Source of the DNA: an uncultured Gammaproteobacteria bacterium | GTDB lineage: Bacteria; Patescibacteriota; Patescibacteriia; Magasanikbacterales; UBA922 | Direction of reading: 5' to 3' | DNA: 64,000 nt | Assembly: GCA_964447765.1 (NCBI GenBank) | Contig: CAYUTO010000001.1 | Span: 205,870-269,869, forward strand | Program-made: the position numbers and the translations under genes | Part shown: one piece after another, positions 4,524 to 62,281 of the stretch | Layout: every line of letters begins with the position of its first letter | Position numbering within the stretch: the stretch's first letter is position 1 | Notes under the pieces: model-generated | What the model saw: the letters and a program-made list of their open reading frames with translations, nothing else | Database searches by the model: none | Told to the model about the DNA's origin: nothing

Positions 4524-4561
4524 AGCGGCGCTATGCTACCAGATCTATACATCAAAATCAA

Positions 4562-4646
4562 TAGAACACAGATCACCAGGATCTCCAGGATTAACCAAGA
4601 TTAAATCCTGGATTATCTGGGTAATCATGGAAATCTGTGTTCTATG
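4562..4646. repeat. Structured intergenic element: 13 bp perfect inverted repeat (ATAGAACACAGAT / ATCTGTGTTCTAT) enclosing a nested hairpin
   Basis: Arms at 4562-4574 and 4634-4646. The interior contains TCCAGGATTAA...TTAAATCCTGGA stems. The arm core AATAGAACAC-GAT resembles the TIR family found at 12.3 kb and 50.3/50.7 kb. Confidence 0.4.
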
Positions 4647-4666: not shown

Positions 4667-5122
4667 CTACTTACTTTTCTTAGTTAATCCTGTCTCGTCA
4701 AATGTATACGTCCGGTCAAATTCGAATCCTGCGTATGTCGAAGTACCAATCAGAATTACCACTGTCGCATAAAACTTCCAGTCAGCATATAAGGTTCCAA
4801 GCATTTTTATTCCTTCTCCTCCTGGCATACTTACTAACACGAGTATCATATCAAGCACACACGAGATAACCAGCGCTAAAATTCCCAGTAATAACCCTCT
4901 TCGAGTGGAAGGCTGGAATTTTCTAAAGTACCATTTCGCGCATATCAATATTGCAGGAATTAAGGTGAGCAGATACACTACACACTGTAATACAGGAATG
5001 TCATTTGGAGCAGTATCGAGACTGGTGCCAAAAACTACGGACATTAGTGCAAATAGAATAAAGCTTGCAAGATAAAACAATACGGAAAAACTGAGGGCAC
5101 GTTTGAAATGTAAGTCTTTCAT
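4667..5122 (-). CDS. Hypothetical integral membrane protein
   Basis: The ORF has several hydrophobic segments. The internal start MKDLHF at 5122 was chosen so that it does not overlap the upstream gene. Confidence 0.5.
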   Translation of the reverse strand: MKDLHFKRALSFSVLFYLASFILFALMSVVFGTSLDTAPNDIPVLQCVVYLLTLIPAILICAKWYFRKFQPSTRRGLLLGILALVISCVLDMILVLVSMPGGEGIKMLGTLYADWKFYATVVILIGTSTYAGFEFDRTYTFDETGLTKKSK

Positions 5123-5135
5123 AGGATTATGATTA

Positions 5136-7201
5136 TTATACAAGATCATCAAAACTAATTTCCTCATTCTCATTTATTTTCTTGGGCTTTGGTTCTTCTA
5201 CTTGCTTTGCTTGTTGCGGGGGTGTTGGAGGTATTACAGGTTTAAGAGTTGGTGAAACAATCATACCTTCTACTGCAGGAAGTGGTGCGTGTAATTCAGT
5301 ACGAACTTGTTCCCGCTGTTGAGGTACTGGCTGATTATTCTCCCTCTGTATCATGGGCTGATTTCCACTCATCGGATTTCCACCGATTGGATTTCCTTCC
5401 GCATCCCTATTCCCTCTTTTTCTTCTTCGTCTTCGTTTTTTTCCTGTACCCGGTTCACCTTGAATTTGAGTTGGATTTTGAGGTTGAGATTGAGATTGAA
5501 GTTGAGGTTGCACTTGAGATTGTCCTTGTTGTACCGGAAGAGGTCGTGGTGGGCGATTTTCAAACACACTCACCGGAGGAGCAGGTGTTTGTGGCTTATC
5601 ACGACGAGTATCAGTACGGGGAGTAAGACTCGTAAGTGATATTACCACTTCTTTTACTTCCTCAGTTTTTTTCTCTCTTGGTGCTTCCTTTTTTTCCTGA
5701 TTCTGCCTACGATCATCAGGTCTTTTATCGTCCCTTCGTGGTTGAGGTCGAGATTGGGGTTGAGACTGAGGTTGGGGTTGGGGTTTTGGTAATTGAACAA
5801 CAGGTTGTGCTGAAGGTAATTTTTTTAATTCTTTATTTTCTGGCAATAATACCATATCACTATCGACTCCCGCATCCTCCTCGTCTGTTGCAGAACTACT
5901 CCAACGTGCAATTTTTTCTTCCACCAATCCACGCTTCCTACCATATCGTTCACGCGATACGCGAATTACTTTTTCTGCTGAGTCTGTAGGACTCGCAAGC
6001 GGAGGAAGGGTTGCTGCGCTAAATGGCTGTGATGCCACCCCATCAATCATGAGCTTCAAAATAATCTGATATTTAGTGAGGTTTACAATATCTTCTTCGG
6101 TAAATGTAGGGGTAAATTCTTTTACGAGCATTTCAGCATCAGCACCTCCCACACGGAAGGTCACAATCGTCCCCACGTTACCAAATACAGCGTCAGCCAC
6201 CACTTCATCGAGCTGTGCCACATATTGGTGCGCCATGATGAGGCTCAGGCGATATTTACGCGCTTCAGATAAGATATTTGCAAAAGACGGAGTTGCAAAG
6301 TTTTGAAACTCATCTACATAGAGAAAAAAATCTTTTCGATCAGGCTCCGGCGTATCTACCCGCTCCATTGCAGCGAGCTGCAGTTTGGTAATAAGCATTC
6401 CCCCGAGCAGACGACTGTTGTCTTCGCCAATTCGACCCTTTGACAAGTTCATGATAAAAATTTTCTGTGAATCCATGAGCTCACGAACATTGATCGTAGA
6501 CTTCACCTGTGCGACCATGTTTCTAATGACTGAGGCAGACAAAAACTGACCGATTTTATTCTGAATCGGAGCCACCGCTTCTTTTGCATAGCGATCATCA
6601 TAATTTGCAAATTCATCACGCCAAAACGCTTTGATCACCGGATCTTTCAAATTTCTTACGACACGTTTGCGATATTCCTTGTCAGACAAAAGACGATTGA
6701 CTCCCAATAATGTTGATCCTGGATAATCAAGCAATGCTAGTAACGTATTATTTAAAATATATTCCATTCTCGAACTCCACACATCTGGCCAGATTTTTTT
6801 AAATGTTCCCATGAGCCCTCCGGCAATCAGATGCGCCTGTTCTTCATTTTTTACTTCAAGAATATTGAAACCAATCGGATTATCTGTGTCTGCCGGATTG
6901 AGGTATACCACATCGTTCAAACGCCATGATGGAATATGATTGATAATTTTCTCAGCAAAATCTCCGTGAGGATCAACTAGCCCTACGCCATGTCCTGCAT
7001 AGATGTCTGACAAGACCATATTCTCCATGATCGTAGTCTTACCCATTCCTGTTTTTCCAATCACATACATGTGACGACGACGATCATCCACTTTGATACC
7101 AAAACGACGCATTTGATTGCGGTAATTGGTTTGACCAAACAAACAGATTTCTTCATCTTTTTTTGGAGCCGTTCCTGGAGCTCTTAGCTGTGGAGTTGGC
7201 A
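5136..7201 (-). CDS. TraG/TraD/VirD4-like (type IV coupling protein family) P-loop ATPase with a long Pro/Gln-rich disordered C-terminal tail
   Basis: Walker A motif GKTGMGKT and Walker B motif LYVDEFQNF are present. A TraM-recognition-type region (MAHQYVAQLDE...GNVGTIVTFR) follows. The C-terminal 250 aa is low complexity, with PQPQPQSQPQSRPQP, a KKRRRRRKRG stretch and QSQVQPQLQSQSQPQ. The start MPTPQ was chosen at 7201. Confidence 0.7.
5451..5530. repeat. Tandem hexamer-like repeats (GTTGAG/GATTGA)n in the coding region of the P/Q-rich tail. A second block lies at 5740-5790
   Basis: The sequence ttgaggttgagattgagattgaagttgaggttg and similar runs are visible in the DNA. They encode the PQ/SQ repeats. 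Confidence 0.6.
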
Positions 7202-11920: not shown

Positions 11921-12301
11921 TTAAACAATTTTAAATGTCTGAATCATTGAGATAATACGAGCCCCTTCTCCCTCCACCACTTCTCCTTCGTATTCTCCAC
12001 CATGCGCAGAAGTGCCTTGGTAGCTCGGCTGTTTCTGATCCAGATGCAAATTCACCTGAAATCCTCCTTCATACTCCTCAATATACGCGTGAAACCTTGG
12101 GTAGAGTGTTCTTCCATTGATCATTCGCATGTAGCTGGTTTGACCCGTATTTCTCCCAACCATCTTCCCATACCCACATCGACGGAGGATGTATTCAGGA
12201 TTGTGTTTGTACTGTCCATCGCAGAAAATTTTCATAACATTGGTTACACTGAAATTAAATTCCGTTTCTATTCCGTCAGATTCGTTAAATCCGTGTTCCA
12301 T
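11921..12301 (-). CDS. Hypothetical protein (126 aa); the first five codons (MEHGF) lie inside the left arm of the TIR-like repeat
   Basis: An ORF with a Gly/Glu-rich C-terminus. The N-terminal DNA ATGGAACACGGATT is part of the inverted-repeat arm at 12258-12301. Confidence 0.4.
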   Translation of the reverse strand: MEHGFNESDGIETEFNFSVTNVMKIFCDGQYKHNPEYILRRCGYGKMVGRNTGQTSYMRMINGRTLYPRFHAYIEEYEGGFQVNLHLDQKQPSYQGTSAHGGEYEGEVVEGEGARIISMIQTFKIV

Positions 12302-12359
12302 TCAATATTCGCTTAATAGAACACGGATTGGACAGAATTGAACAAATTTAGACGGAATT
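12258..12359. repeat. Head-to-head inverted pair of the ~45 bp TIR-like repeat (consensus TTAATAGAACACGGATTGGAC(A/G)GAAT...GACGGAATT)
   Basis: The left arm at 12258-12301 is the reverse complement of the right arm at 12312-12359. The right arm is about 90% identical to the copy at 50294-50342. Confidence 0.6.
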
Positions 12360-12831
12360 AAATATGACATGATTCTTCCCCTCGTTTCATCAAATACTTC
12401 TGATGATAGTCTTCTGCTTTCCAGAAATTTTCAGCAGGAGTAACCTCAGTCACAATTGGACTTTTCCATTTACCAGAACTTTCTAACTCTTCTTTTGATT
12501 TTTCTGCAACTTCTTTTTGTTCGGGCGTATGATAAAAAATTGCTGAACGATATTGAGTACCAACATCCGGGCCTTGGCGGTTCAAAGTGGTAGGATTATG
12601 CGATTGCCAAAAAATATTCAATAATTCTTCGTACGAAATTTTATCAGGATCATAGGTGAGCTGTAGTACTTCTGCATGTCCGGTTCGAGATGAGCACACT
12701 TCCTCATACATAGGACGTTCAGACTGACCTCCCATATATCCGACTGCAGTTTCAATCACTCCGGGTAGTTTTCGAAATGTTTCCTCTACTCCCCAAAAGC
12801 ATCCTGCGCCAAATGTTGCTTGTTGCGTCAT
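12358..12831 (-). CDS. msrA: Peptide methionine sulfoxide reductase MsrA
   Basis: The active-site motif [10 protein letters not shown] is near the N-terminus. Length is 157 aa. Confidence 0.9.
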
Positions 12832-47870: not shown

Positions 47871-48779
47871 CTATTTGATATATGTCATTTCATAGTCCGC
47901 GCCACCAATAATTACCTTAATATCCCCTCCCTGATCCGTCCTCCACACCGTACTTGATACACGCTCCAGTCGTTTGATCACTCGTCTGCTCGGGTGCCCA
48001 TAATTATTATCCTTTCCAGCTGAGGCTACTGCGTCTCGTGGGGTCGTGAGTTCTAAAAATTCCTCGCTTGTTGAACTGTCGCTACCATGGTGTCCAAGTT
48101 TTAAAATATCCACATCCAATTCTTCTCCATATACTTCTCCCAAATATTTTTCCAGAGGATCCTCAGCATCAGCCATCAATAATACGGACGTACTGCCATG
48201 CAATACTTTTATCACTATTGAAGTATTGTTTGAACCCGAATCTTTTGTAAGCCCGGGAATTTTTGAATCTTTCGGAATCTCATGGTCGGGATACAAGAAC
48301 TGAAGTGTTGTAGAAGCAATGTCCCATTCGACTGGACTACTAATTTCTACATACTCACCTTCTGCACGCGAGGCCGTATTAAAAGATTTCCACAATTTAC
48401 TATCTTCTTTTTTCAAACCATTATATACCACATGCTTTACTTCAAACCTATTGAGAACTTCTTCACATCCCCCATAATGATCAAGGTCAGGATGCGTTAC
48501 TACCAGATAATCAATTTCCCTATCATTCCAATCCATTACTCGACCAAGCGCCTCAAGAATTCGCCCATCGATTGCACAATCAATCAACATATCTTCACCA
48601 TTCGCAAATTTCATATACGTCGCATCTCCTTGTCCAATATCAAGAAATGTAATCTCCAGATTGCTTTCACCCACTTCTTTAATACCCCCAACTTGCGGAT
48701 CATTATTTTCTGGTACCTCAAACAAATAACTTACAGCAACCACAAGACTCAATACTATTATATACAAAAGATGTTTCAT
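47871..48779 (-). CDS. Metallo-beta-lactamase domain protein corresponding to the ComEC C-terminal domain, encoded separately
   Basis: The sequence LDIGQGDATYM...VVTHPDLDHYGG...LKLGHHGSDSS carries the MBL motifs. It overlaps the ComEC core gene by 4 nt. Confidence 0.75.
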   Translation of the reverse strand: MKHLLYIIVLSLVVAVSYLFEVPENNDPQVGGIKEVGESNLEITFLDIGQGDATYMKFANGEDMLIDCAIDGRILEALGRVMDWNDREIDYLVVTHPDLDHYGGCEEVLNRFEVKHVVYNGLKKEDSKLWKSFNTASRAEGEYVEISSPVEWDIASTTLQFLYPDHEIPKDSKIPGLTKDSGSNNTSIVIKVLHGSTSVLLMADAEDPLEKYLGEVYGEELDVDILKLGHHGSDSSTSEEFLELTTPRDAVASAGKDNNYGHPSRRVIKRLERVSSTVWRTDQGGDIKVIIGGADYEMTYIK

Positions 48780-50290
48780 ACATTAGTTACTTTTTTTAAT
48801 TTAACCATTAGTCCGAACAGCAGTACATATAATAGCACCATACTCACATAATGTATCCTTAGTTCGACTGATGCAAAAGGTACGTGCGCAAAAAATTGCA
48901 CTACTCGTATGATATATTCCATACCTATATAACCCACAAACCCAAGCATATTTGCCAAGGTTACTGACACAAAACTAAGTGCGACCACTACTGCACCCGC
49001 AATCATAATCCATGGAATAATCCATAGAATAAGAATGTTTACGAGGGGTGCCACAATTGAAAGCCGACCAAATTGAAACAGTATCAAAGGCAATGTCATA
49101 ATAATCGCAGCAAGAGTTGAAATAAGAGACTCTTTGAGTCCCAAAAAATTGGGAAGTTTGGTTATATATTTTTCAAGTATTGGCGACAAGTAGACCAACC
49201 CAATCGTCGCGAGAAACGAGAGCTGAAATCCTGCATCCCAGATGAGGACAAACGGATTATGGACAGTCATAAGTACTGCGGTAAGTACGAGCACATTCCC
49301 AATCGAGCTTTTTCGACCACCCTGTTTTGCAACTAAAACTAATACCCCCATAATTCCTGCTCGCACGACTGATGCGCTCGCACCTGTAAATATCACAAAT
49401 AGAATAATCCCCGTGATGACGACCCAAAAAGCTTTTTTTCGTGGGATGTACACTGCCTTACATAATGCAATAAAAATAGTCGCAATAATCGTAATATTGT
49501 ACCCAGAAATCGCTACAATATGAGTGACACCCGTGGTTGCAAATAAATCATTGAGCGAACCGAGCCCTCCGCGATATCCATATAAGAGCCCTGCCATAAA
49601 GCTCGCATACGGCTCGTGCCAGAGATACTCAATATTATTCGCAAGCTTTTTTTTGAAAGAAAATATAGCGCTGTAAAATACATTTCCTTTCATCTCTCCC
49701 GTAGGATTAATCTCTGGGTTTTGACAGAGTGCATAGATATTCATGCGCGATAGATATCGATCATAACGGAAGGTCGTTCCATTTTCTTTATCTTCAATTG
49801 GCTCAGGTTTTTCTATCTGGCATTCAATACTCAATTGCTCACCATACACATAACGCGGATACAAATCACCTTTCATATACACTTCACCAACTATTTCCTT
49901 ATCTCTATCAACAAAACGTTCCACGTGTACTCGATACCGCACACCATCCTGCCGAATATCTGGCTCAGATGATACAAAGCCTACAAATGAAACTTTATTT
50001 TCTGCATAATTATGGATATATTCAGAAGTATTGGGAGGAAATACAGATTGATAGCGAATGAAGCCCAATATAAAGAATAGTACAGATAATATTACAAAGC
50101 GAGCTAAAGGGTTATCCTTCCATAGAAAGAATGCCGTTACCAAGACTCCTAAGATACTTACTACATACCACAAAGAAATAAATTTCTCAGTCAAAGAGAT
50201 AAGTGTCACACCCAAAAGAAAACAAAAACAGAGCACCAAAAATGTTTTGCTTTTTGAATTTGTTATATGTATGAAGCCTGCCTTGAACAT
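48776..50290 (-). CDS. comEC: ComEC/Rec2 DNA-internalisation channel core (DUF4131 plus Competence domain)
   Basis: A polytopic membrane protein. The conserved competence-domain region reads ATTGVTHIVAISGYNITIIA. Confidence 0.8.
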   Translation of the reverse strand: MFKAGFIHITNSKSKTFLVLCFCFLLGVTLISLTEKFISLWYVVSILGVLVTAFFLWKDNPLARFVILSVLFFILGFIRYQSVFPPNTSEYIHNYAENKVSFVGFVSSEPDIRQDGVRYRVHVERFVDRDKEIVGEVYMKGDLYPRYVYGEQLSIECQIEKPEPIEDKENGTTFRYDRYLSRMNIYALCQNPEINPTGEMKGNVFYSAIFSFKKKLANNIEYLWHEPYASFMAGLLYGYRGGLGSLNDLFATTGVTHIVAISGYNITIIATIFIALCKAVYIPRKKAFWVVITGIILFVIFTGASASVVRAGIMGVLVLVAKQGGRKSSIGNVLVLTAVLMTVHNPFVLIWDAGFQLSFLATIGLVYLSPILEKYITKLPNFLGLKESLISTLAAIIMTLPLILFQFGRLSIVAPLVNILILWIIPWIMIAGAVVVALSFVSVTLANMLGFVGYIGMEYIIRVVQFFAHVPFASVELRIHYVSMVLLYVLLFGLMVKLKKVTNV

Positions 50291-50293
50291 AAA

Positions 50294-50782
50294 CTTAATA
50301 GAACACGGATTGGACGGAATTTAACTAATTTGAACGGAATTTTTAAATTTATTTTCAAATACTTTTCTTTTAAATTGCGGTTTTATACCAAAATTAAATA
50401 AAAAACCAACCTCAATTTCGGTTGCTCTTAGATAATTAATAAGTTGTGCCTCATGTTCCTCTCGAAGACCTTCCGTTGCCTTAAGTTCAATAATTATTTT
50501 ATTCTCCACTATAATATCTGCAAAATATTCACCTACAAGTATTTTTAAATCATAGACTTTTATCGGGACTTGTCTAATACCTCTGATTCTTAATCGTTGT
50601 AACTCAAACACCAATGCATTTTCATACACTTTTTCTAAAAACCCGTATCCAAGCCTATTATATACATTATAGTAGGCTTTGATGATTGTATGCCCCAATT
50701 CCCCCTCCAACATACAATGTATTAATTCGTCTTGATTCCGTCCAATTCTGTGAAATCCGTGTTCTATTAAATCAAACAACAA
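50294..50782 (-). mobile_element. Putative small mobile cassette: a GxxExxY (PD-(D/E)XK fold) gene flanked by ~45 bp terminal inverted repeats
   Basis: The right TIR at 50294-50342 and the left TIR at 50734-50770 (reverse complement) share TTAATAGAACACGGATT...GGACGGAAT. A third copy lies at 12312-12359. The TIRs overlap the first and last codons of the gene. The gene start overlaps the leuS stop by 11 nt. Confidence 0.35.
50321..50782 (-). CDS. GxxExxY family protein (PD-(D/E)XK nuclease-like)
   Basis: The GxxExxY signature is visible in YGFLEKVYENALVFEL. Length is 153 aa. Confidence 0.8.
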   Translation of the reverse strand: MLFDLIEHGFHRIGRNQDELIHCMLEGELGHTIIKAYYNVYNRLGYGFLEKVYENALVFELQRLRIRGIRQVPIKVYDLKILVGEYFADIIVENKIIIELKATEGLREEHEAQLINYLRATEIEVGFLFNFGIKPQFKRKVFENKFKNSVQIS

Positions 50783-53606
50783 TATTCAATATCTTCCCCG
50801 GCACGTAGATTATTTTTTTCGGTTTTTTATCTTCGATCCATTTTGATATTTGTTCTTGTTCATGAACCGCTTTCATCGCGACTTCTTCTCCTGCATCCGG
50901 AGCAATCTCGATCATGCCTCTCATTTTTCCATTTACCTGTACTGCGAGTGTAATCACCTCTTCCTTGAGTTTCGACTCATCGTATTCGGGCCAATCTGCC
51001 TGATGAATACTTCCCTCTCCTTGGAATATACTATGGTACAGCTCCTCAGTGAGATGTACTGCAAAAGGTGCTAGTATTCGATTAAATCTTTCAAGGACAG
51101 ATTTTTGAATTTTATCAGCCTTGGTCAATTCATTCACCGTAATCATCATCTCTGAGACTGACGTATTGAATTGAAATGCAGAAATATCATTCGTCACTTT
51201 CTTAATCGTCTTATTGATCAATTTTTCCTGAGACTCAATCACCACATCCACTAATTCTTTTTCATATAATCTGATATAGCGCTGAAGGAATTTGTATACA
51301 CCCTCAACCCCATTCGTATTCCACGCAGCAGATTGGGTAAATGGGCCAATAAACATTTCATACATTCGGAAACTATCTGCACCATATTTTTCAATCACAT
51401 CATCTGGATTGATCACATTATTCCATCGCTTACTCATCTTACGACCATCTTCTGCCATGATAAGCCCTACGTTAATCAGTTTGTGAAATGGCTCATCAGT
51501 TGAGACAACACCTTGATCAAACAAAAATTTGTGCCAGAATCGAGCATATATCAGGTGACGAGTTGCATGTTCAGTTCCACCTACATACAAATCTACCCCA
51601 TTCTCCCCCATCCAATATTTTTCTTTTGCTGGATCAACTAATTTTTTGGTATTCTTTGGATCAATGTAGCGCAAATAATACCAACTACTTCCTGCCCACT
51701 GTGGCATCGTATTTGTCTCCCGTTTTCCACCTGGTACATTCACCCAACTTTCAATTGACGCTAAGGGTGATTCGCCAGTGCCCGTAGGTTCATAATGTTC
51801 TACTTGAGGGAGTTCTACTGGAAGTTCTTTATCTCCGACAACTTCAATAGATCCGTCTTCTTTGTGAATAAAAGGGAAAGGCTCACCCCAATAACGCTGT
51901 CTCGCAAATACCCAATCACGAAGTTTATACTGCACCTTTCGCTTTCCTTTATTATTTTCTTCCAGCCATTGAATCATTTTTTCTTTAGCATCTTGGGTTG
52001 AGAGGTCATTCAAGAAATCGGAATTAATCGCAATTCCATCTTCTGATATACAGTGTTTGCTTTCCACATACCACTGCCAAAAAGTTTTATGATGGTCTAA
52101 AGTTAACATTTTTTCCACTTCATTTTTTTTCGCCCACACCACTTCATGCATTCCTTCATCTTCTTCACTCAGCTTTTCTCTTTTATTACTATGGAGCTCA
52201 ACAACATACACATGTTCAAAATCATAACAATTAACATCTTTTCTTGGCTTAAATCCGTGTCCAAAAAAGTTTGGTAGCGTAAGACCAAGAGAAAAATCTG
52301 TATATCCAGTTTCTTCTTTAATTTCACGCTCTATTGCTTCATCTACAGATTCCCCGTCCTCTATTGCTCCACCAACAAAACCACTAATATCTTGTTTCCA
52401 ATTAAGAAGTAGATATGTATCATCTTTTGGGTTATGGATAATAGCTGAGACAACATTCTTTTTTCTAACATCCTTATTCTCTCTTGGTTCGCATATACCG
52501 CTACATCGAAGATAAGGAGCAACTACTTGCTGGATTGGCAAACCAAACTTCTTCGCAAATTCATGATCACGCTCATCATGTGCAGGTACTGCCATGATTG
52601 CTCCTGTTCCATATCCCATCATCACATAATCTGCGATCCAGATCGGAAGTGATTCTCCAGTTACCGGATGAATCACCGAAAGTCCTTTTAACTCTACACC
52701 AGTTTTTTCTTTGGTAGCCTGACGATCTACATCTGTTTTTGACTTTGTTTTTTCAATATAGGATTCAACCTCATTCCAATTCTGAATTTCAGATTTCATT
52801 TCTTCTACTAATTCGTGCTCTGGCGCAACCACTACATACGTAGCACCAAACAAGGTGTCTGGACGTGTGGTGAAGACTTCAATTGTTGAATTTGAACTTT
52901 GAAATTTGAAATTTATGAGGGCTCCTTCACTTCTCCCGATCCAGTGTCTCTGCATATCTTTGATCGAGTCTTCCCAATCAAGTTTTTCTAATCCTTCGAG
53001 CAATCTATCTGCGTATTTGGTAATTTTAATAAGCCACTGACGAAGTTTTTTCTTTTCGACTACTGAGCCACAGCGTTCGCATTTTCCATCTTCTAGATCT
53101 TCAAGAGCAAGACCTGTTTTGCAGGTAGGACACCAGATGATTGGTTCATACACTTCTTCCATGAGTCCCGCTTCAAACATTCGCGCAATACACCACTGTG
53201 TCCACCGGTAATATTCTGGATCAGTCGTATTGATTTCTCGCGTCCAATCAAAATTAAAACCGATTTTTTCTAATTGCGATTTGAATACTTCAATATTTTT
53301 TTCTACAGCAACACTTGGATGCACCTTATTCTTAATTGCATAATTTTCTGCAGGTAATCCAAAAGCGTCCCATCCCATCGGATGGAGCACATTGAATCCG
53401 TTCATACGCTTGAATCGAGAATAGATGTCTGTTGCAATATAGCCTTTAGGGTGTCCTACATGCAGTCCTGCGCCACTTGGGTATGGAAACATGTCGAGAA
53501 CATAGCACTTAGGCCTGTCTGTCGTATCTTCTACTAGGTAAACACCCTTCTCTTCCCAATACTTTCTCCACTTTTCTTCTATCTTTTTCGGATTATACAT
53601 TTCCAT
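50772..53606 (-). CDS. leuS: Leucyl-tRNA synthetase with a Nudix hydrolase domain inserted after the CP1 editing domain
   Basis: The N-terminal motif PYPSGAGLHVGHPKGY (HIGH type), the editing motifs TRPDTLFGAT and AVPAHDERDHEFAKKFGLPI and the KMSKR motif are present. A Nudix box GGAIEDGESVDEAIEREIKEETGY lies at roughly aa 385-530. Confidence 0.9.
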   Translation of the reverse strand: MEMYNPKKIEEKWRKYWEEKGVYLVEDTTDRPKCYVLDMFPYPSGAGLHVGHPKGYIATDIYSRFKRMNGFNVLHPMGWDAFGLPAENYAIKNKVHPSVAVEKNIEVFKSQLEKIGFNFDWTREINTTDPEYYRWTQWCIARMFEAGLMEEVYEPIIWCPTCKTGLALEDLEDGKCERCGSVVEKKKLRQWLIKITKYADRLLEGLEKLDWEDSIKDMQRHWIGRSEGALINFKFQSSNSTIEVFTTRPDTLFGATYVVVAPEHELVEEMKSEIQNWNEVESYIEKTKSKTDVDRQATKEKTGVELKGLSVIHPVTGESLPIWIADYVMMGYGTGAIMAVPAHDERDHEFAKKFGLPIQQVVAPYLRCSGICEPRENKDVRKKNVVSAIIHNPKDDTYLLLNWKQDISGFVGGAIEDGESVDEAIEREIKEETGYTDFSLGLTLPNFFGHGFKPRKDVNCYDFEHVYVVELHSNKREKLSEEDEGMHEVVWAKKNEVEKMLTLDHHKTFWQWYVESKHCISEDGIAINSDFLNDLSTQDAKEKMIQWLEENNKGKRKVQYKLRDWVFARQRYWGEPFPFIHKEDGSIEVVGDKELPVELPQVEHYEPTGTGESPLASIESWVNVPGGKRETNTMPQWAGSSWYYLRYIDPKNTKKLVDPAKEKYWMGENGVDLYVGGTEHATRHLIYARFWHKFLFDQGVVSTDEPFHKLINVGLIMAEDGRKMSKRWNNVINPDDVIEKYGADSFRMYEMFIGPFTQSAAWNTNGVEGVYKFLQRYIRLYEKELVDVVIESQEKLINKTIKKVTNDISAFQFNTSVSEMMITVNELTKADKIQKSVLERFNRILAPFAVHLTEELYHSIFQGEGSIHQADWPEYDESKLKEEVITLAVQVNGKMRGMIEIAPDAGEEVAMKAVHEQEQISKWIEDKKPKKIIYVPGKILNIVV

Positions 53607-53663
53607 AGAAACAATACTAATGTGATTCCTATATACTAGCCCAGTCACCTATTTTCTGCAACC

Positions 53664-56600
53664 TTAAGGAGCAATCTCACCACTTGGACTATCCGAAGGA
53701 GTTGAAGATGATTCTTCAGAAGTTTCTTCACTATTATTTATTTCGTCTTGGACTTCTTGTATCAGTTGATCAATAAAACTTGGAGCTGAATCCACCGTTT
53801 CTTCTTCTGGAGGGGTCGGATCTGATTGAGGCTCAACAGGTACATCAACTTGTGGAACACTCTCTGGTTCTGGTTCTTCAACAGCTTCTTCAGAAGCAGA
53901 GGAGGAGCCTGATTCTTCAGGTACTGGACCCGGTACCATTAATTCACCCTGAAGATCACAATCACCCGGTAATTTTTCCCATTCACCATTGGCAATTCGA
54001 ATACAGTAGATTTCTCCCGTCACACTATCCGTCATTTCCATTTCTTCAGTACGAATCTTATCAAACACACCTACTACTGCAGTGACTCTCTCCGCTAGAA
54101 AATCTTTAATCACACCAGCTCCGTCTGAGAGTCTGTTTACGAGATAGGTCATAGCCGAAGCCAGCGGTCTGTTTGCAGCATAGAGGAGTTCTTCTTCTGA
54201 GAGCGTACGAGGAGTAGATGAATTTACTCCTGCAGTTGCAAGGAGAAGTCCATCGATTTGTTGTTGCTGGGATTGTACAGCTGAGATGAGAGGGATCACG
54301 AGACGAGCATAATCGACTGATCGAGGAGTGGTACTACTTGGTTCGTAGATGACGAGATGTTTGTTAACGAGATCCACTTCTTCTGCAATTAACCCTAATT
54401 CTTCTACCTCATCATGATTACGTTTATAGGTTACTGGTCGGAGTTCCAGTATGGTTGAGAGTCCATCATTCCAAGTCTCAATGTCATGTTTAAATCTTTG
54501 AGAGGAAACGGTACAGTTACCTGCTTGATGCGTGATCTTTCCTCCGGTGTCAAAACACAGATAGTCACTGGTGGCACCAGGAGCAGTGAGGCCTGGCATG
54601 TAGACCAGAGAACTTGAGACAACGAGACCACGGAGAGTAGTCGTACCAACCACGCCCAAACCTCCATCGGTGAACATGCCCCCTACACCCACATTAAGAC
54701 CACTGGTGATGTAAGCGTTGTTTCCTACCGTGAGATTCTCCGTTACTGAGATATTACTTGATTGGAGAGAACCGATGTGTGCTGAAGGGGCGTCGATACC
54801 GCCGAGGTCGATGACGGAGAGAGAATGCGAACCATAGCTTGCTACATAGGCATATTTACCAGAAATATGGATTGAAGAAATACCGTTGAGTGCAGTGGAA
54901 GAAACAACTCCACCAACAATGCTCGGTTGAGTAGGGTTCGAAATGTCGATTACACGAAGTGATGTATCTTCAGTATTCGCGACATACGCATATTTACCTG
55001 CAACCTGGATTGAACGCGCACCATTAAGTTGAGACGAAGAAATAGTACCAACAACGGTGGAAGACACAGGATTAGAGATGTCAACAACACTAACGGTGCC
55101 ACCATAACCCGCCACATACGCATATTTTCCTGAAACATACACAGAGCCTGCAGTACCTGCAACATAAGTCATGCTACTAAGAATTATAGGTGTTGTGGGA
55201 TTGGAGATATCGAGCACTGTTAACCTACCTTCATCACTCCCTGTCACATACGCGTACTTACCTGATACATACACGGCGTTAGCACCATTAAGAGCAGTGG
55301 AAGAAACAATACTACTAACAATCGTTGGGGTGGTAGGATTAGAAACGTCAACGATAGCAAAAGAATCACCAAGAAAAGAGGTCACATACGCATATTTCCC
55401 TGAAACGTAGAGGGCAACAGGAATATTCAATGCAGTAGATGACACAACACTACCAACAATACTTGGCGTGGTAGGATTAGAGATATCAACGACAGATAGA
55501 GAATTAGCGTCATAGCTTGCTACATAGGCGTATTTTCCTGCCGCATACACTGCGCGAGCGCCTTGCAGCACAGTCGATGACACAACGCCTCCGACAATAG
55601 TTGGTGATGTAGGATTAGAGATATCAACGATACGAAGGGAGTTGTCAGCAAGGTTTGCCACATATGCATACTTACCTGAAACGTACGTTGAGATCGCTGA
55701 ATTAAGCGCAGTTGATGATGCAACAAATCCTACAATTGTAGGATTACTCTTGATACTCACATCCACCGACCCAGCAGATACCAGTCCGCCAGTCGATATG
55801 CCGCCAGCTCCCACATTCAATCCATTTGAAACATATGCATTATTTGCAACCGTAAGATTATCTGTAACATTAGCCGTATTTACTTGAAGTGCACCAATAT
55901 TTGCAGAAGGCGCATCAATACCGCCAAGGTCAATAATGCGGAACGTCCCACCAGCACCATTCGCCACATACGCATATTTTCCTGATACGTAGACGGACCG
56001 TGCATCATCGAGTAATGTAACGTGCTTGACCCCTCCGACAATTACAGGATTAGTAGAGCTTGAAATATTAATAATACGAATAGAGTCATCGTCCCGAGCT
56101 GCCACATACGCATATTTTCCTGATACGTAGACGGACCGTGCACCATTAAGATTTGCAGCGTCTTTTATTCCACCAACAATACTCGGAGCAGTTGAGCTAG
56201 AGATATCAATAATACGAAGTGAATCATCACTTTCATTCGCCACATACGCATATTTTCCTGATACGTAGACGGACCATGGATCATTGAGGGCAGTTGTTGA
56301 AACTACACTCCCTACAATAGATGGAGTGGCAGGATTTGAGATGTCGATGATACGCAGTGAGTGAGTGTTTCTATCTGTTGTATACGCATATTTTCCTGAA
56401 ACATATATAGAAGATAGTCCACCAAGTGCAGTGGTGGAAACCACACTTCCAACAATACTAAGGTTGGTTGAATTTGAGATGTCGATGACTTGGAGAGAAC
56501 TATCTCCTGATACATACGCATATTTACCTGAAACATACACAGCACTAGCAGTAATCGCTGTTGAAGTTACCCTACCAACAACACTTGGAGTAGTAGGATT

Positions 56601-59600
56601 TGAAACATCGATCACATGGAGCGATTCAAATGCCGTCACATACACATTATTACCGGTAACAAATAAGTCCCCTGGTAAAAAGATCTCTGAGTCGTTTAAA
56701 CTACCAATGTTAACCGGAGTAGTAGGATTTGAAACATCGATTACATTCAACTCATCACTCCCTATACCAATCGTGTATGCATATTTACCAAAAACTTTAA
56801 CTTCTCCAGGAATACCGCCCAAACTCACACCTCCTAGAATAGATGGTTCAGCAAGAGCAGTCTGATTGAAACTACCTGCAACAAAAATATTTGATGAACT
56901 AACATTCGTACCTGATGCGTTGGTGAATGCGAGATTGCTAGTAAATAAATTAGTACTCGTGATAGATGCCCCAACTGCAATTCCAAATGAGAAATTTGTA
57001 GTAGTTGCATTGGTACCATTTAGATTAGTAAATCGCAATCCGGCTGAGAAGAAGTTCGTGCTCGTTGCATTCGTTAAGGTAGTGACTCCAAGATTCGTGA
57101 GACCAGAGACATTCAAGTTAGTTGAGGTAAGTGAAGTTCCGTTCAATCTAGTAAATGAGATATTGGTTGAAGTAACATTAGTAAGTACAGATGAGGTAAC
57201 AAATAAAAACGAAGAAGAAACATTTCCTGCAACATTTAAATTTCCATCGGTTCTCAATGTACCTGCGACAAGTCGATACAAATAAGTATCACTTCCAAAG
57301 CTCAAACCTCCAAATCTAGTGGTCGATGCAGCAAGATTAAGAATCGTTTGAGGAGAAGAGGTGCCAATACCAACAAAACGACCCCCCGTAATACGCATTG
57401 CTTCGACATTATTCATCATGAAGCTAATCGGATTACTCGCATTTGAATTAATATAATTAACACCTGCCAATACACCTCCTACACCCAAATTCGCATGACC
57501 AAATGAAAATTGGAGAGTATTAGTACTATCAAATAAATCAAACGATGTGTATCCATTGGACGCCGCATTCTGATATCTCACTAATCCAGAACCTGGAGCA
57601 TTAGCTACAACAGTCAACGCACTGCTAATCGATGTAGTACCGACACTAATATTTCCAGAAAAAGTTGTTGTTGCTAGACGAGATTGTCCGGTAGTTGTAA
57701 TCGAAGCACCATTCAACCGTACAAAAGAAATATTAGTACCCGTAAGATTTGTTCCTACTGCATTCACAAATGCGAAGCTAGCTGTTGAAGTAATGTTTTC
57801 ACCAATGAGGTTTGTAAACTGTAATCCGGCTGAAAAGAAATTTGTTGAAGTGCCATTGGTAAACGTAGTCATACCAAGATTGGTGAGACCAGACACATTT
57901 AAATTAGTAGAGGTAACATTTACCCCACTCAAGTCAGTGAAAGAAATGTTGGTCGAGGTGAGTGATGCAATACTGGCACTGCCAAATGCAAGATTACTAA
58001 AGAATGCATTCGTAGAAGTAATACTTCCAAACGTAGACGAGGTAGCAAAGAGATTAGTGGTTGTCAAGGAAGTGACACTTAATCCTCCTGCAATATATGA
58101 GGTGGAAGTTCCTGATACCGAAAGTGCGCCATCTACTTTGATTCCCCCAATTCCAACCACAAGACCGTTACCAACATAAGCATCATTAGTAACATTAAAA
58201 TTATCAGTGATATTAAGATTACTTACCTGTAATGCGCCGATATTAGCTGAAGGAGCATCGATTCCCCCAATATCGAGAATATGAAACTCATTACCACCAC
58301 TTTGATTACCCACATACGCGTATTTACCAGAGACAAAAATAGCTCGACCAGCGTCAGGAAGATTAAATCCTCCACCGATGGTATTTGGAGCAGTAGAACT
58401 TGAAATATCAATCACATAGATCTCGGCTCCAATGGCACTAGAATTGGCCAAATACGCATATTTACCTGCGACATAAATCGACTGCACCGTATCATTCGAA
58501 AAATCTTCACTCCCGACAACAGAAAGAGCCGTAGAACTTGAAATATCAATAATATGGAAATCACTGACAGGGTCTGCGGTACCATTAGTACCTACATACG
58601 CATATTTTCCAGAGACATAGATCGATTTAACGGTATTCAACAAATCAATACCCCCAGCAGTCGTAGGACTGACCGGATTAGAGATATTAATAACCTGAAG
58701 ATCATTACCCGTGGAAGAGGTAATACCAATAAACGCATATTTACCAGATACGAAGACAGCGTTGACATCAGTTGATACATCAACACCTCCCACACTGATT
58801 GGACTTACCGGATTTGAGATATCGATAATATGGAAATCATTACCGGACACTGAATTCACACCCACATATGCGTACTTACCAGAGACATAAATTGTTTGAA
58901 CACCCGTCGACAAATCAATACCACCTACTTCAATAGGATTGGTCGGATTAGAGATATCAATAACATGTAGATCACTGCCTGCGGCTGCAGTAGTACCTAC
59001 ATATGCATATTTTCCAGAGACGTACACTGAGATAGCTGCTGAAGATGCCCAGGTTATACCCCCACCAAGCTCGACAGGATTAGTAGGATCCGAAACATCA
59101 ATCACATGAAAATCAACACCGGTACTCTGAGTAACTACATATGCATATTTCCCCGATACGTGTAGTGCCCGAATTGAATCTGATAAATTAAGAGTACCTG
59201 CTTCTGTTAATGATGTATCTACTGCTTGCGTAAAATTATCTACTAAATACAGATTAGTAGACGAAACATTGGTAAATACACCTGTCGAAGGATTTGAATT
59301 ACCAATAGGAGAGTTGTTAACCGTTCCCCCATCAATCGTGAGAGAATTAGCAACCATTGGGTCAGTCACGGAGTTCGTGGGAAGTGAGAGTGCTCCCGTA
59401 ACAGCTAAATTGGTCGAAGTAATACTAGTACCATTCAATCTGGTAAATGAAATATTTGTTGAAGTGAGACTTGTGCCGTTTGCAGTACCAAATGAGAGAC
59501 TTTGTGCAAAGAAGTTTGCAGTTGAACTTGCATTGGTAAATACTGCAGTTGAAGCTCCCGTTGATCCAATCGGTGTGTTGTTAATACTTCCCCCATCGAT

Positions 59601-62063: not shown

Positions 62064-62281
62064 AATTAAACAATTACGAAATAACCACAAGGCGACTATT
62101 CTCTGCCTTATTTTTACTAGTGGTAGTGTACCATATTTATGGCTTCACTACTATGAAAATGTGGTCGGGATTGTGGAGAACTTTAATCCGATACATACAT
62201 TCTATTTTTCCATCATTCCCCGCATTTTAATTCATATAAAAAATACCAGAATTCTCTGGTATTTTTTATATGAAACACTTT

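What the first reader, a model, noticed from the sequence alone, without database searches (positions are those of the whole stretch)
50294..50782. GxxExxY gene framed by ~45 bp terminal inverted repeats that recur elsewhere in the window, a candidate miniature mobile cassette
A ~45-50 bp sequence (consensus TTAATAGAACACGGATTGGACRGAAT...GACGGAATT) occurs in the plus orientation at 50294-50342 and inverted at 50734-50770, bracketing the GxxExxY ORF. The same element is found at 12312-12359 at about 90% identity. At that site an inverted partner lies 10 bp away at 12258-12301. A weaker related inverted pair lies at 4562-4646. The repeats overlap the first and last codons of the GxxExxY gene, and its start overlaps the leuS stop. 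GxxExxY proteins have a PD-(D/E)XK nuclease fold and no known function. A TIR-flanked arrangement with empty, MITE-like copies would fit a selfish, homing-type cassette.
Basis: seen in the sequence. Interest (0 to 1): 0.55.

Follow-up and report, generated by a model that had tools for sequence, protein, structure and literature searches.

The report
Nuclease gene inside a mobile palindrome
A small nuclease gene sits inside a ~50-bp inverted repeat wedged between two housekeeping genes; most sampled genes of this large uncharacterised family share that design, as do protein-coding ribosomal-RNA intervening sequences, which suggests one overlooked class of selfish insertion elements.

Summary
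A 130-aa GxxExxY (PF13366, PD-(D/E)XK) gene on the minus strand (ATG 50713, stop 50321) is bracketed by arms 50716-50770 and 50295-50349. Gene-less hairpins of the same family lie at 12254-12363 and 4561-4645.

Each arm has a conserved foot (AATAGAACAC) and 3-4 tandem 9-11-nt units.

The design is general:
- 54 of 72 related GxxExxY loci from metagenomes have such arms.
- Distant family members in Bacteroides, Sphingomonas and Bernardetia have the same design with other unit sequences.
- The genes sit sense-oriented in stop|start spacers of operons (42 '++' against 3 '--').

In Magasanikbacteria the leuS|comEC junction is occupied in six genomes. It is cleanly empty in two (a third has no gene called there). 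The msrA junction carries different hairpins in close relatives.

The same architecture frames 23S-rRNA-IVS-protein genes (PF05635), including a true Azospirillum 23S IVS.

Best reading: an IVS-type palindromic selfish cassette with MITE-like derivatives, moving rarely at the DNA level.

Not shown: who mobilises it, any target-site duplication, any RNA-pairing signature (G:U 108 against A:C 112).

I found no published description in the library searched.

The parts
50716..50770 (-). 5' arm of the cassette in the sense orientation. It has the foot TTAATAGAACACGGATT, then units CACAGAATT, GGACGGAAT and CAAGACGAATT. It is non-coding and ends 3 nt before the ATG.
   Evidence: The inverted repeat is I1. 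It pairs with the 3' arm in the MFE fold.
50321..50713 (-). GxxExxY / PDDEXK_3 gene: 130 aa, ATG at 50713, TAA at 50321-50323. The last 8 codons (FKNSVQIS) and the stop lie inside the 3' arm.
50295..50349 (-). 3' arm. On the plus strand it reads TTAATAGAACACGGATTGGACGGAATTTAACTAATTTGAACGGAATT. The foot ends 4 nt before the comEC ATG.
50772..53648 (-). leuS, the upstream host gene. Its stop codon at 50772-50774 is 1 nt before the cassette (listed arm edge 50770; 2 nt before the TTAATAG foot).
   Evidence: Pfam tRNA-synt_1 and Anticodon_1. The junction is shown.
48776..50290 (-). comEC, the downstream host gene. Its ATG at 50288-50290 follows the cassette foot after AGTTT.
   Evidence: PF03772 and PF13567 homologues. 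The junction is shown.
12254..12363 (-). Gene-less hairpin of the same sub-family (ACGGAATT units) between the msrA stop (12358) and a hypothetical gene. The arms are in the reverse order, with the feet next to a 12-nt loop.
   Evidence: Fold z = -5.5. Arm identities to the cassette arms are 38-43 of 51. An orthologous copy is in L106 and a different hairpin is at the same site in L107.
4561..4645 (-). Gene-less hairpin of a second sub-family. It has the foot ATAGAACACAGAT at the base and CCAGGAT-type units. It lies between the stop of ORF 4667..5173 and the mnmA start at 4523.
   Evidence: Fold z = -7.3. mnmA is confirmed by Pfam. A copy ~88% identical (by eye) sits at the msrA junction of a related genome, L107.

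Best explanation
Window 50295-50770 is a ~476-bp palindrome-bounded insertion cassette. It carries a small PD-(D/E)XK nuclease gene (GxxExxY) that fills the space between two arms. It lies between the leuS stop codon and the comEC start codon, 1-5 nt from each, in the sense orientation of the operon.

**Anatomy (shown).** Each arm is a conserved foot, (A)AT[A/G]G-AC-[A/G]C, followed by 3-5 tandem units of 9-10 nt ending in GAT(T). The gene has no separate 3' end. It reads into the 3' arm until a stop codon occurs there.

**Class (shown).**
- The design recurs in about three quarters of related GxxExxY loci.
- With other unit sequences, it recurs in distant family members from other phyla.
- It also recurs in genes of the unrelated 23S-rRNA-IVS-protein family, including a genuine 23S rRNA intervening sequence.
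- Gene-less hairpins with the same foot and units occupy other stop|start spacers of the same genomes.

**Dynamics (shown by comparison).**
- The leuS|comEC site is occupied in some Magasanikbacteria and cleanly empty in others.
- Solo hairpins at one orthologous junction differ between close relatives.
- The same hairpin family appears at non-orthologous sites.
- The cassette has nevertheless been inherited mostly vertically.

**Mechanism (inferred).**
- It is an IVS-type selfish element that moves rarely, at the DNA level.
- It is transcribed only by read-through of the host operon.
- In the transcript the arms pair into a ~45-bp stem. The stem brings the upstream stop and the downstream start together. 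As in rRNA IVSs, it is a plausible RNase III substrate, which makes the insertion tolerable.
- The nuclease most likely recognises the foot and units of its own arms and of the solo copies, and nicks or cuts them. That would start copying or loss through host repair or replication, a relationship like that of a RAYT to its REPINs.
- This last step is the least secure.
For: **The repeats are real and non-random**
-.

**The design is general**
- 54 of 72 testable metagenome loci have flanking inverted repeats with z > 4 and the same foot.
- Of 49 ORFs with strong flanking inverted repeats in all held DNA, 37 are GxxExxY. The rest are shadows or artefacts, plus a few unrelated ORFs including one RAYT.
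- Distant members, at 33-37% identity, have arms with different units: Bacteroides CACAGAGGA, Sphingomonas CGCGAAGG, Bernardetia CACAGAGA.

**Unit structure**
- The best self-shift is 9 nt in 46 arms and 10 nt in 20 arms, of 86.

**Gene and arms form one unit**
- Arm 6-mer sharing tracks protein identity (Mantel r 0.20, p 0.0005) more than flank GC (r 0.06, p 0.09).
- In six orthologous cassettes the unit type covaries between the two arms: ACGGATT/AATCCGT, ACGGGTT/AACCCGT, ACGAATT/AATTCGT, ACGGAATT/AATTCCGT.

**Orientation and position**
- Both neighbours are co-directional with the gene in 42 of 51 loci. They are both opposite in 3.
- Annotated cases include fabD|fabG, radA|FAD protein and ade|guanylyltransferase.

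**Presence or absence at one site**
- Occupied in the window, L088, L089, L091, L092 and L094.
- Empty in L090 (TAG-T-ATG) and L093 (10-nt spacer). On the P0137 contig no gene is called between leuS and comEC, but no DNA was available.
-.

**Solo-hairpin turnover**
-.
- Solo arms resemble the co-resident cassette arms: 0.20 against 0.06 shared 6-mers.

**The protein looks like an active, constrained nuclease**
- E27, D66, E76 and K78 are invariant.
- The fold is Cas4-like.
- Identity is 65-68% to proteins named Ignavibacteria.

**Link to IVSs**
- 5 of 6 PF05635 genes on cyanobacterial plasmids have inverted arrays of short units.
- An Azospirillum 23S rRNA IVS has arms of GGACGGATGACAGAGGACGG units (LSU_rRNA 896 bits; PF05635 E 2e-33; fold z = -8.9).
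- RNase III excision and sense orientation of IVS ORFs are documented in PMC4990558.
Against: - No movement has been observed. Everything rests on comparison.
- No target-site duplication can be read at any of six occupied sites. No conservation extends beyond one A outside the foot.
- At the leuS site inheritance is largely vertical (Mantel r 0.51). The low window-L088 identity lies in a recombination mosaic of 100% and ~75% blocks. Replacement at that site is therefore not proven.
- Non-Watson-Crick positions in the arms show no sense-strand wobble bias: G:U 108 against A:C 112, with 384 other mismatches, in 64 elements. Selection on RNA pairing is not demonstrated.
- PF05635 elements share the architecture but encode no nuclease. 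The nuclease may be cargo, not the engine.
- A PD-(D/E)XK enzyme can cut but is not known to join DNA.
- The reverse-order hairpin at 12254 is unexplained.
- The family is nearly absent from viral contigs (2 loci) and rare on plasmids (8 records). No vehicle between cells has been identified.
Confidence: 0.55

Rival explanations
1. Free-standing homing-endonuclease gene. The nuclease cleaves the empty stop|start junction, here leuS|comEC, in a cell that lacks the cassette. Double-strand-break repair then copies the cassette in. The arms are accessory, for example as insulators of operon expression.
For: - The same junction is occupied or cleanly empty across genomes whose ComEC proteins are only ~50% identical.
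- The closest GxxExxY relative (81%) sits at the same junction in a genome whose LeuS and ComEC are 47-52% identical to the window's.
- Sites lie between conserved housekeeping genes.
- The nuclease active site is intact.
Against: - This model does not explain gene-less hairpins at other sites, tandem hairpin arrays or the conserved foot.
- Among 80 related loci only one adjoins leuS. There is no single target.
- The Mantel test indicates mainly vertical descent.
- PF05635 elements have the same layout without a nuclease.
Confidence: 0.12
2. Host-function reading. The arms are REP-like regulatory palindromes that act in mRNA processing, stability or translational coupling between adjacent genes. 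GxxExxY is a domesticated host gene that uses them for its own expression. Nothing is currently mobile.
For: - Long vertical persistence at leuS|comEC.
- Strong purifying selection on the protein.
- Hairpin feet lie 1-20 nt before downstream start codons.
- The orientation bias fits expression by read-through.
- There is no excess of promoters or terminators.
Against: - Cleanly empty sites nest among occupied relatives.
- Different hairpins occupy the same junction in genomes whose MsrA proteins are 90-92% identical to the window's. The same hairpin family also sits at non-orthologous sites.
- There are tandem amplifications.
- There is no G:U bias, which a selected RNA helix would be expected to show.
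- Foot and units occur across phyla in unrelated operons.
Confidence: 0.15
3. Target model. The hairpins are the primary, independently spreading repeats. GxxExxY and PF05635 genes insert preferentially into their loops, so the 'TIRs' are the split target.
For: - Solo hairpins with the same foot exist with short loops.
- Two unrelated protein families occupy analogous palindromes.
- Insertion sequences that target REP loops are known (for example ISPpu9, listed).
Against: - At leuS|comEC only two states are seen among nine genomes: no hairpin at all, or arms plus gene.
- The gene has no ends of its own. Its coding sequence runs into the arm and uses a stop codon there.
- Arm units co-diverge with the protein.
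Confidence: 0.1
4. Chance similarity, or a conserved N-terminal coding motif of paralogous genes.
For: The 14-mer with up to 3 mismatches is not enriched: 10 matches against 7.9 expected. The repeat reads as an open frame (IEHGF...).
Against: - There are 5 matches with at most 1 mismatch against 0.03 expected.
- The arms lie outside the homologous protein core.
- Copies lie in non-coding spacers.
- The pattern holds in 54 of 72 independent loci.
Confidence: 0.01

Closest known systems
ORF-bearing 23S rRNA intervening sequences (IVS with S23p / PF05635 protein; Coxiella, Leptospira, Azospirillum)
   Same: - A small ORF of ~110-130 aa fills the loop of a long terminal stem.
- The ORF is in the sense of the host transcript.
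- Distribution among relatives is sporadic.
- The element is regarded as selfish and its mobility mechanism is unknown (PMC4990558).
- The Azospirillum IVS fetched here has arms built of tandem units (GGACGGATGACAGAGGACGG) much like GxxExxY arms.
- PF05635 genes outside rRNA are also wedged between co-directional genes with inverted arrays of short units.
   Different: - The host transcript here is an mRNA operon spacer, not 23S rRNA helix 9, 25 or 45.
- The protein is a PD-(D/E)XK nuclease, not a four-helix bundle.
- The conserved AATAGAACAC foot is not present in the IVS arms examined.
- RNase III cleavage is untested here.
REPIN-RAYT systems (REP-associated tyrosine transposases)
   Same: - A single gene is flanked by inverted copies of a palindromic repeat. 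The repeat also populates intergenic spacers as gene-less hairpins and arrays.
- Inheritance is long-term and mostly vertical.
- Repeat type co-varies with the protein lineage (literature listed).
- A real RAYT with GTAG-REP flanks was picked up by the same detector in L002.
   Different: - The enzyme here is a PD-(D/E)XK nuclease, not an HUH/Y1 transposase.
- The repeats are 45-55 nt arms of tandem units with an AATAG foot, not 20-40-nt GTAG- or CGTC-tagged REPs.
- The gene is strictly sense-oriented inside operons.
Bacterial MITEs co-transcribed with neighbours (Correia/NEMIS of Neisseria, ERIC). The properties listed are from my own knowledge.
   Same: The elements are short, have terminal inverted repeats, sit in intergenic spacers, are transcribed with flanking genes and fold into RNase III-type stems. 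The solo hairpins at 4561 and 12254 look like this.
   Different: No TA or other target-site duplication is visible. No DDE transposase partner is known. The arms are made of tandem sub-repeats. The autonomous partner would be a nuclease gene.
Free-standing homing endonuclease genes (for example phage seg/mob genes; the PD-(D/E)XK enzyme I-Ssp6803I). From my own knowledge.
   Same: A small nuclease gene is inserted between conserved genes, is present or absent at the same site among relatives, and depends on host transcription.
   Different: Homing genes need no terminal inverted repeats and leave no gene-less copies. Cleavage of the empty site is untested.
Foldback-type transposons of eukaryotes (Drosophila FB). 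From my own knowledge.
   Same: The terminal inverted repeats are themselves built of short tandem sub-repeats.
   Different: They are eukaryotic and kilobases long, with an unrelated transposase. The resemblance is structural only.

Membership tests
GxxExxY / PDDEXK_3 (TIGR04256, PF13366) | Profile match above the curated cut-off | tested here: met
   PF13366 scores 126 bits against a cut-off of 22. TIGR04256 scores 122 bits against a cut-off of 35.
GxxExxY / PDDEXK_3 (TIGR04256, PF13366) | GxxExxY motif and the PD-(D/E)XK catalytic residues | tested here: met
23S rRNA intervening sequence (IVS) | Inserted in a 23S rRNA helix (9, 25 or 45) | tested here: not met
   The window contains no rRNA (Rfam). 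The flanks are leuS and comEC.
23S rRNA intervening sequence (IVS) | Terminal complementary arms form a long stem, with a sense-oriented ORF in the loop | tested here: met
   Compared with a real IVS.
23S rRNA intervening sequence (IVS) | ORF of the S23p / PF05635 family | tested here: not met
   The ORF matches PF13366 only.
23S rRNA intervening sequence (IVS) | Stem cleaved by RNase III | not testable with these tools
   This needs RNA end-mapping. The lack of G:U bias gives no support for selection on RNA pairing.
MITE | Terminal inverted repeats, small size, no transposase gene, multiple copies | tested here: met
   The solo hairpins at 4561-4645 (85 nt) and 12254-12363 (110 nt) meet these features. 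There are three family members in 64 kb.
MITE | Target-site duplication | tested here: inconclusive
   GTA flanks both sides in L088 and L089 and occurs once in the empty L090 site, but this does not hold in the window, L091, L092 or L094. No conserved bases lie beyond position -1.
MITE | Derived from, and mobilised by, a DDE-type insertion sequence with the same ends | not tested
   No transposase with these ends was seen in the loci examined. No genome-wide search was possible.
REPIN-RAYT | Associated gene is an HUH/Y1 (IS200-like) transposase | tested here: not met
   The gene is PF13366.
REPIN-RAYT | Gene flanked by inverted copies of the dispersed repeat, with repeat type tied to the gene lineage | tested here: met
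Homing endonuclease gene | Presence or absence at one conserved site among relatives | tested here: met
Homing endonuclease gene | Enzyme cleaves the empty allele | not testable with these tools
   This needs biochemistry.

The most novel reading that the evidence does not exclude
GxxExxY cassettes, four-helix-bundle (IVS-protein) cassettes, rRNA intervening sequences and the gene-less hairpins may together form one unrecognised superfamily of prokaryotic mobile elements. Their defining feature would be palindromic arms of tandem 7-10-nt units. In the GxxExxY branch a minimal Cas4-like PD-(D/E)XK nuclease would serve as the element's own mobilising enzyme. That would be a transposition or homing route that uses none of the known DDE, HUH, serine or tyrosine enzymes. 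It would also give a function to more than 20,000 protein clusters and explain how IVSs spread.
Probability: 0.3. Interest if true: 0.85.

Novelty: new variant of a known kind. Interest (0 to 1): 0.68.

Why it matters
- PF13366/TIGR04256 is a very large family: 22,756 clusters at 50% identity with E <= 1e-3. The 2012 PD-(D/E)XK survey lists its function as unknown, and only four papers in the searched library mention the family by name or accession.
- This work gives the family a defined nucleic-acid partner, the foot and units of its own arms. It also gives a consistent genomic habit: sense-oriented, in stop|start spacers of housekeeping operons. Its function therefore becomes directly testable.
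- It links the family by architecture to the ORF-bearing rRNA intervening sequences, whose origin and means of spread have been open since the 1990s.
- It accounts for a practical annotation problem. Repeat-encoded N- and C-terminal extensions appear on these proteins and on their neighbours. Examples are the 153-aa ORF here and the MEHGFNESDG... extension of the gene after msrA.

Tried and rejected
- **Rfam.** At gathering threshold the window gives only a tRNA. At relaxed threshold on the element only chance matches appear. The hairpin is not a described RNA family.
- **Solved structures by sequence.** None found.
- **Defence or phage origin.** PADLOC gives only weak Cas4 matches (E 0.0017). 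PHROGs gives none. Viral contigs give 2 loci.
- **Arm identity in the 12254 hairpin.** I thought it might keep '3'-arm then 5'-arm' identity, as a circle junction would. Explicit alignment shows all four arms are about equally alike, at 38-43 of 51, so I dropped the idea.
- **Replacement between window and L088.** GxxExxY is 75% identical while the flanks are 92-94%, which I first read as replacement. The region is in fact a mosaic of 100% and ~75% blocks, so recombination explains it.
- **RNA-level selection.** Not supported by the wobble test.
- **ATG-YTN-RAG-GAG-G as a duplicated target.** This sequence begins both GxxExxY and comEC. The Glu-Glu-Leu is part of the conserved GxxExxY N-terminus in other taxa, so the resemblance is probably coincidental.
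- **Other cargo in S-type arms.** Only GxxExxY was found in the held loci, but those loci were selected through GxxExxY.
- **Annotated records.** Two records held no four-helix-bundle gene. A consensus probe then found such genes on plasmids.
- **Second assembly.** L105 carries the window's msrA region and is identical to it, so it gave no information.
- **Literature.** Seven completed searches found no description of the association.
Full report
**1. What is in the window**

Around 50.3-50.8 kb all genes run on the minus strand: leuS (50772..53648), a small ORF, then comEC (48776..50290).

The small ORF matches PF13366/PDDEXK_3 (E 1e-36) and TIGR04256 'GxxExxY' (E 2e-35). The match covers only residues 28-139 of the mechanical 153-aa ORF. 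About 120 homologues are 122-153 aa (most 125-135) and start at the position of Met24. The gene is therefore 50713 (ATG) to 50321 (TAA), 130 aa.

The repeat finder gives arms 50295-50349 and 50716-50770, and a second pair 12254-12302 / 12315-12363. The core ATAGAACACGGATT occurs five times with at most one mismatch, against 0.03 expected.

All three places fold far better than shuffles (z -5 to -7). The arms pair in the minimum-energy fold of the whole cassette transcript.

The 5' arm ends 3 nt before the ATG. The last eight codons and the stop codon lie in the 3' arm. The cassette begins 1-2 nt after the leuS stop (arm edge 50770; foot TTAATAG from 50769) and ends 4 nt before the comEC ATG.

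The two other copies are gene-less hairpins in stop|start spacers. One lies between msrA and a hypothetical gene. The other lies between an unknown ORF and mnmA. The 12254 hairpin has its arms in the opposite order, with the feet at the loop.

**2. Arm anatomy**

Each arm is a foot, (A)AT[A/G]G-AC-[A/G]C-GAT, followed by 3-5 tandem units ending in GAT(T).

Over 86 arms from related loci the best self-shift is 9 nt in 46 arms and 10 nt in 20 arms. Only one base outside the foot shows any conservation, an A at position -1.

**3. The design is general**

A metagenome scan with an alignment of homologues returned 80 loci at 52-67% identity. Of 72 with enough flank, 54 have a significant inverted repeat around the gene (z > 4). 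Nearly all of these have the same foot and unit style.

Other layouts also occur:
- hairpin-gene-hairpin;
- two cassettes in tandem;
- in L019, six 168-nt hairpin units in tandem before the gene.

Among all ORFs of about 70-320 aa (stop to stop) in the DNA I held, 49 had strong flanking inverted repeats. Of these, 37 were GxxExxY. The rest were antisense shadows and N-run artefacts, plus a few unrelated ORFs including one RAYT with classic GTAG REPs.

Distant family members at 33-37% identity, on annotated replicons of cultured bacteria, show the same design with other units:
- Bacteroides finegoldii, radA|gene|FAD protein, CACAGAGGA units;
- Sphingomonas, fabD|gene|fabG, CGCGAAGG units;
- Bernardetia, ade|gene|guanylyltransferase, CACAGAGA units.

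An exact 24-nt foot-plus-unit pattern also hit solo hairpins in MAGs titled Chitinophagaceae, Bacteroidales, Calditrichia and Cloacimonetes. Three further hits are titled 'Gammaproteobacteria'. At least one of those contigs is syntenic with the window, so that title is unreliable.

**4. Position and orientation**

In 42 of 51 loci both neighbours run the same way as the GxxExxY gene. In only 3 do both run the other way. The upstream gene usually ends about one arm-length before the gene.

There is no excess of promoter-like or terminator-like sites at the window cassette. The gene is evidently expressed by read-through of the host operon.

**5. Evidence on mobility**

*(a) The leuS|comEC junction.*
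- Synteny (giant surface protein, leuS, comEC, metallo-beta-lactamase) holds in the closest relatives, and leuS-comEC adjacency holds in all Magasanikbacteria examined.
- The junction is occupied in the window, L088, L089, L091, L092 and L094.
- It is empty in L090 (TAG-T-ATG) and L093 (10-nt spacer). On a third contig no gene is called between leuS and comEC (67-nt gap, no DNA available).
- L090 nests among occupied relatives (LeuS 83-85% identical). Its state is most simply a clean loss.
- All six occupied sites have the same anatomy. The unit type differs between genomes but matches between the two arms of each cassette.

*(b) Inheritance at that site.*
- Over 23 genomes paired by contig (by matching contig lengths; five pairs verified from DNA), GxxExxY identity correlates with ComEC identity (Mantel r 0.51, p 0.0005).
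- There are outliers in both directions.
- The window's closest GxxExxY (81%) sits at the same junction in a genome whose LeuS and ComEC are only 47-52% identical.
- The lower identity to the close relative L088 lies within a recombination mosaic. I do not count it as replacement.

*(c) The msrA junction.*
- The window and L106 carry an orthologous reverse-order hairpin. The spacer is conserved and the units differ.
- L107 (MsrA 90%) carries a different, normal-order hairpin at the same junction. By eye it is about 88% identical to the window's 4561 hairpin, which lies at another locus.
- L108 has none.

*(d) Family relationships.*
- Solo arms share more unit 6-mers with the cassette arms on the same contig than with those on other contigs (0.20 against 0.06).
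- Arm similarity tracks protein identity (Mantel r 0.20, p 0.0005) better than flank GC (r 0.06, p 0.09).

Together these results indicate elements that are gained, lost and exchanged as DNA, but slowly.

**6. DNA level or RNA level**

In 64 cassettes the arms are 81% Watson-Crick complementary. Among the rest, G:U on the sense strand (108) equals A:C (112), and transversion-type mismatches dominate (384).

A helix kept by selection on the sense RNA should be rich in G:U, and it is not. So arm similarity reflects sequence constraint or homogenisation at the DNA level. The transcript will still fold.

**7. The protein**

E27, D66, E76 and K78 are invariant. The AlphaFold model is confident (pLDDT 89.7).

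The family has 22,756 clusters at 50% identity (E <= 1e-3), including tandem two-domain read-throughs.

**8. Link to rRNA intervening sequences**

I used a consensus-like probe only as a search tool and confirmed every hit used with Pfam.

I fetched six PF05635 (23S_rRNA_IVP, 'four helix bundle') genes from cyanobacterial plasmids. Five of the six are wedged between co-directional genes; in L111 both annotated neighbours run the other way. Five have inverted flanking arrays of short tandem units (GGGAACA, AGGGAAA, ACAGGTG and others; z 6.6-20). The sixth has direct arrays.

A further hit, on an Azospirillum lipoferum replicon, is a genuine 23S rRNA IVS:
- LSU_rRNA match of 896 bits around the insertion;
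- PF05635 ORF (E 2e-33);
- arms TCAGAGGACGGATGACAGAGGACGG... that pair in the fold (z = -8.9).

Its unit style closely resembles GxxExxY arms; the IVS units and the Bacteroides GxxExxY arm share the 9-mer CAGAGGACG.

For IVSs the literature documents a stem cut by RNase III, a sense-oriented ORF, sporadic distribution and presumed horizontal spread by an unknown mechanism (PMC4990558; PMC11270868).

**9. Interpretation**

*Shown:*
- the anatomy and its generality;
- the orientation rule;
- site polymorphism;
- co-divergence of arms and gene;
- an intact nuclease;
- shared architecture with IVS elements.

*Inferred:*
- The cassette is an IVS-type selfish insertion with MITE-like derivatives.
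- It is tolerated because it sits exactly between a stop and a start, and because its arms pair in the transcript.
- The nuclease acts on the arms, a RAYT/REPIN-like relationship.

The last step is weakened because PF05635 elements manage the same life-style without a nuclease.

*Unexplained:*
- the reverse-order hairpins, perhaps remnants of tandem arrays such as L019;
- the absence of a readable target-site duplication;
- the vehicle between cells.

**10. Novelty**

The protein family and IVSs are known. The following were found in none of seven completed literature searches, and the library lacks most subscription journals:
- the association of GxxExxY genes with palindromic tandem-unit arms;
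- the gene-less copies;
- the operon-spacer habit;
- the architectural identity with IVS elements.

I rate it a new variant of a known kind.

Noticed in passing
window 50772-53648 (LeuS residues 398-519): The leucyl-tRNA synthetase carries an inserted NUDIX domain (Pfam E 4e-13). Relatives L091, L092 and L093 have both NUDIX and alpha/beta-hydrolase hits and L094 has a hydrolase hit only; these LeuS proteins are 1019-1148 aa. L088, L089 and L090 lack them (816-830 aa).
   Followed up: partly
L002 5899-6381 (Chitinophagaceae MAG): An IS200-like/RAYT-type protein (by eye from the translation; not scanned against Pfam) is flanked by strong inverted GTAG-type REP sequences (GTAGGGACGACCCAATATAATAGCCAGGGATT...). 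It lies about 750 nt from an S-type hairpin. It is a different repeat family in the same genome.
   Followed up: partly
L019 1-996: Six tandem copies of a 168-nt unit (95% matches), each containing one S...S' hairpin, lie directly upstream of a GxxExxY gene. Another hairpin lies downstream.
   Followed up: partly
L049 971-1295: An S...S' pair of the same sub-family as the neighbouring GxxExxY cassette encloses about 230 nt. That stretch has no convincing ORF and no Rfam match. It lies between two co-directional genes, and the cargo is unknown.
   Followed up: partly
L004 / L107 (contig CAYMVY010000002.1): The record is titled 'uncultured Gammaproteobacteria bacterium'. The contig is syntenic with the window (cupredoxin, msrA, hypotheticals, L27) and its MsrA is 90% identical. 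The title taxon is unreliable. L001 and L007 may have the same problem.
   Followed up: partly
window 49600-51500 compared with L088: The DNA identity profile is a mosaic. Blocks of 100% identity (for example 51190-51440 and 49600-49790) alternate with blocks of about 70-80%. This indicates recent homologous recombination between diverged Magasanikbacteria lineages.
   Followed up: no
window 50699-50713 and 50276-50290; same positions in L088-L094: Both GxxExxY and comEC begin ATG-(0-1 codon)-YTN-RAG-GRG-G. No other gene in these loci does, and most genes there lack an upstream Shine-Dalgarno sequence. It is probably coincidental, because Glu-Glu-Leu is conserved in the GxxExxY N-terminus. This is not resolved.
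   Followed up: partly
L112 and L115 (Pseudanabaena and Anabaena plasmids): A four-helix-bundle (PF05635) gene sits between cas6 and cas4 in two different cyanobacterial CRISPR-cas loci. In L112 it is flanked by long heptamer arrays (AAAGCTA / AAAGCCA).
   Followed up: no
window 53664-62090: A 2808-aa ORF lies upstream of leuS. It is rich in repeated 'VSGKYAY' beta-propeller-like (LVIVD) units. It is conserved in position in relatives L088 and L090.
   Followed up: no
window 11921-12301 and 50714-50782: Repeat-encoded open frames create false N-terminal extensions. Examples are MEHGFNESDGIETEF... on the gene after msrA and MLFDLIEHGFHRIGRNQDELIHC on GxxExxY. The 153-aa version is present in public protein sets (P0001).
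   Followed up: yes
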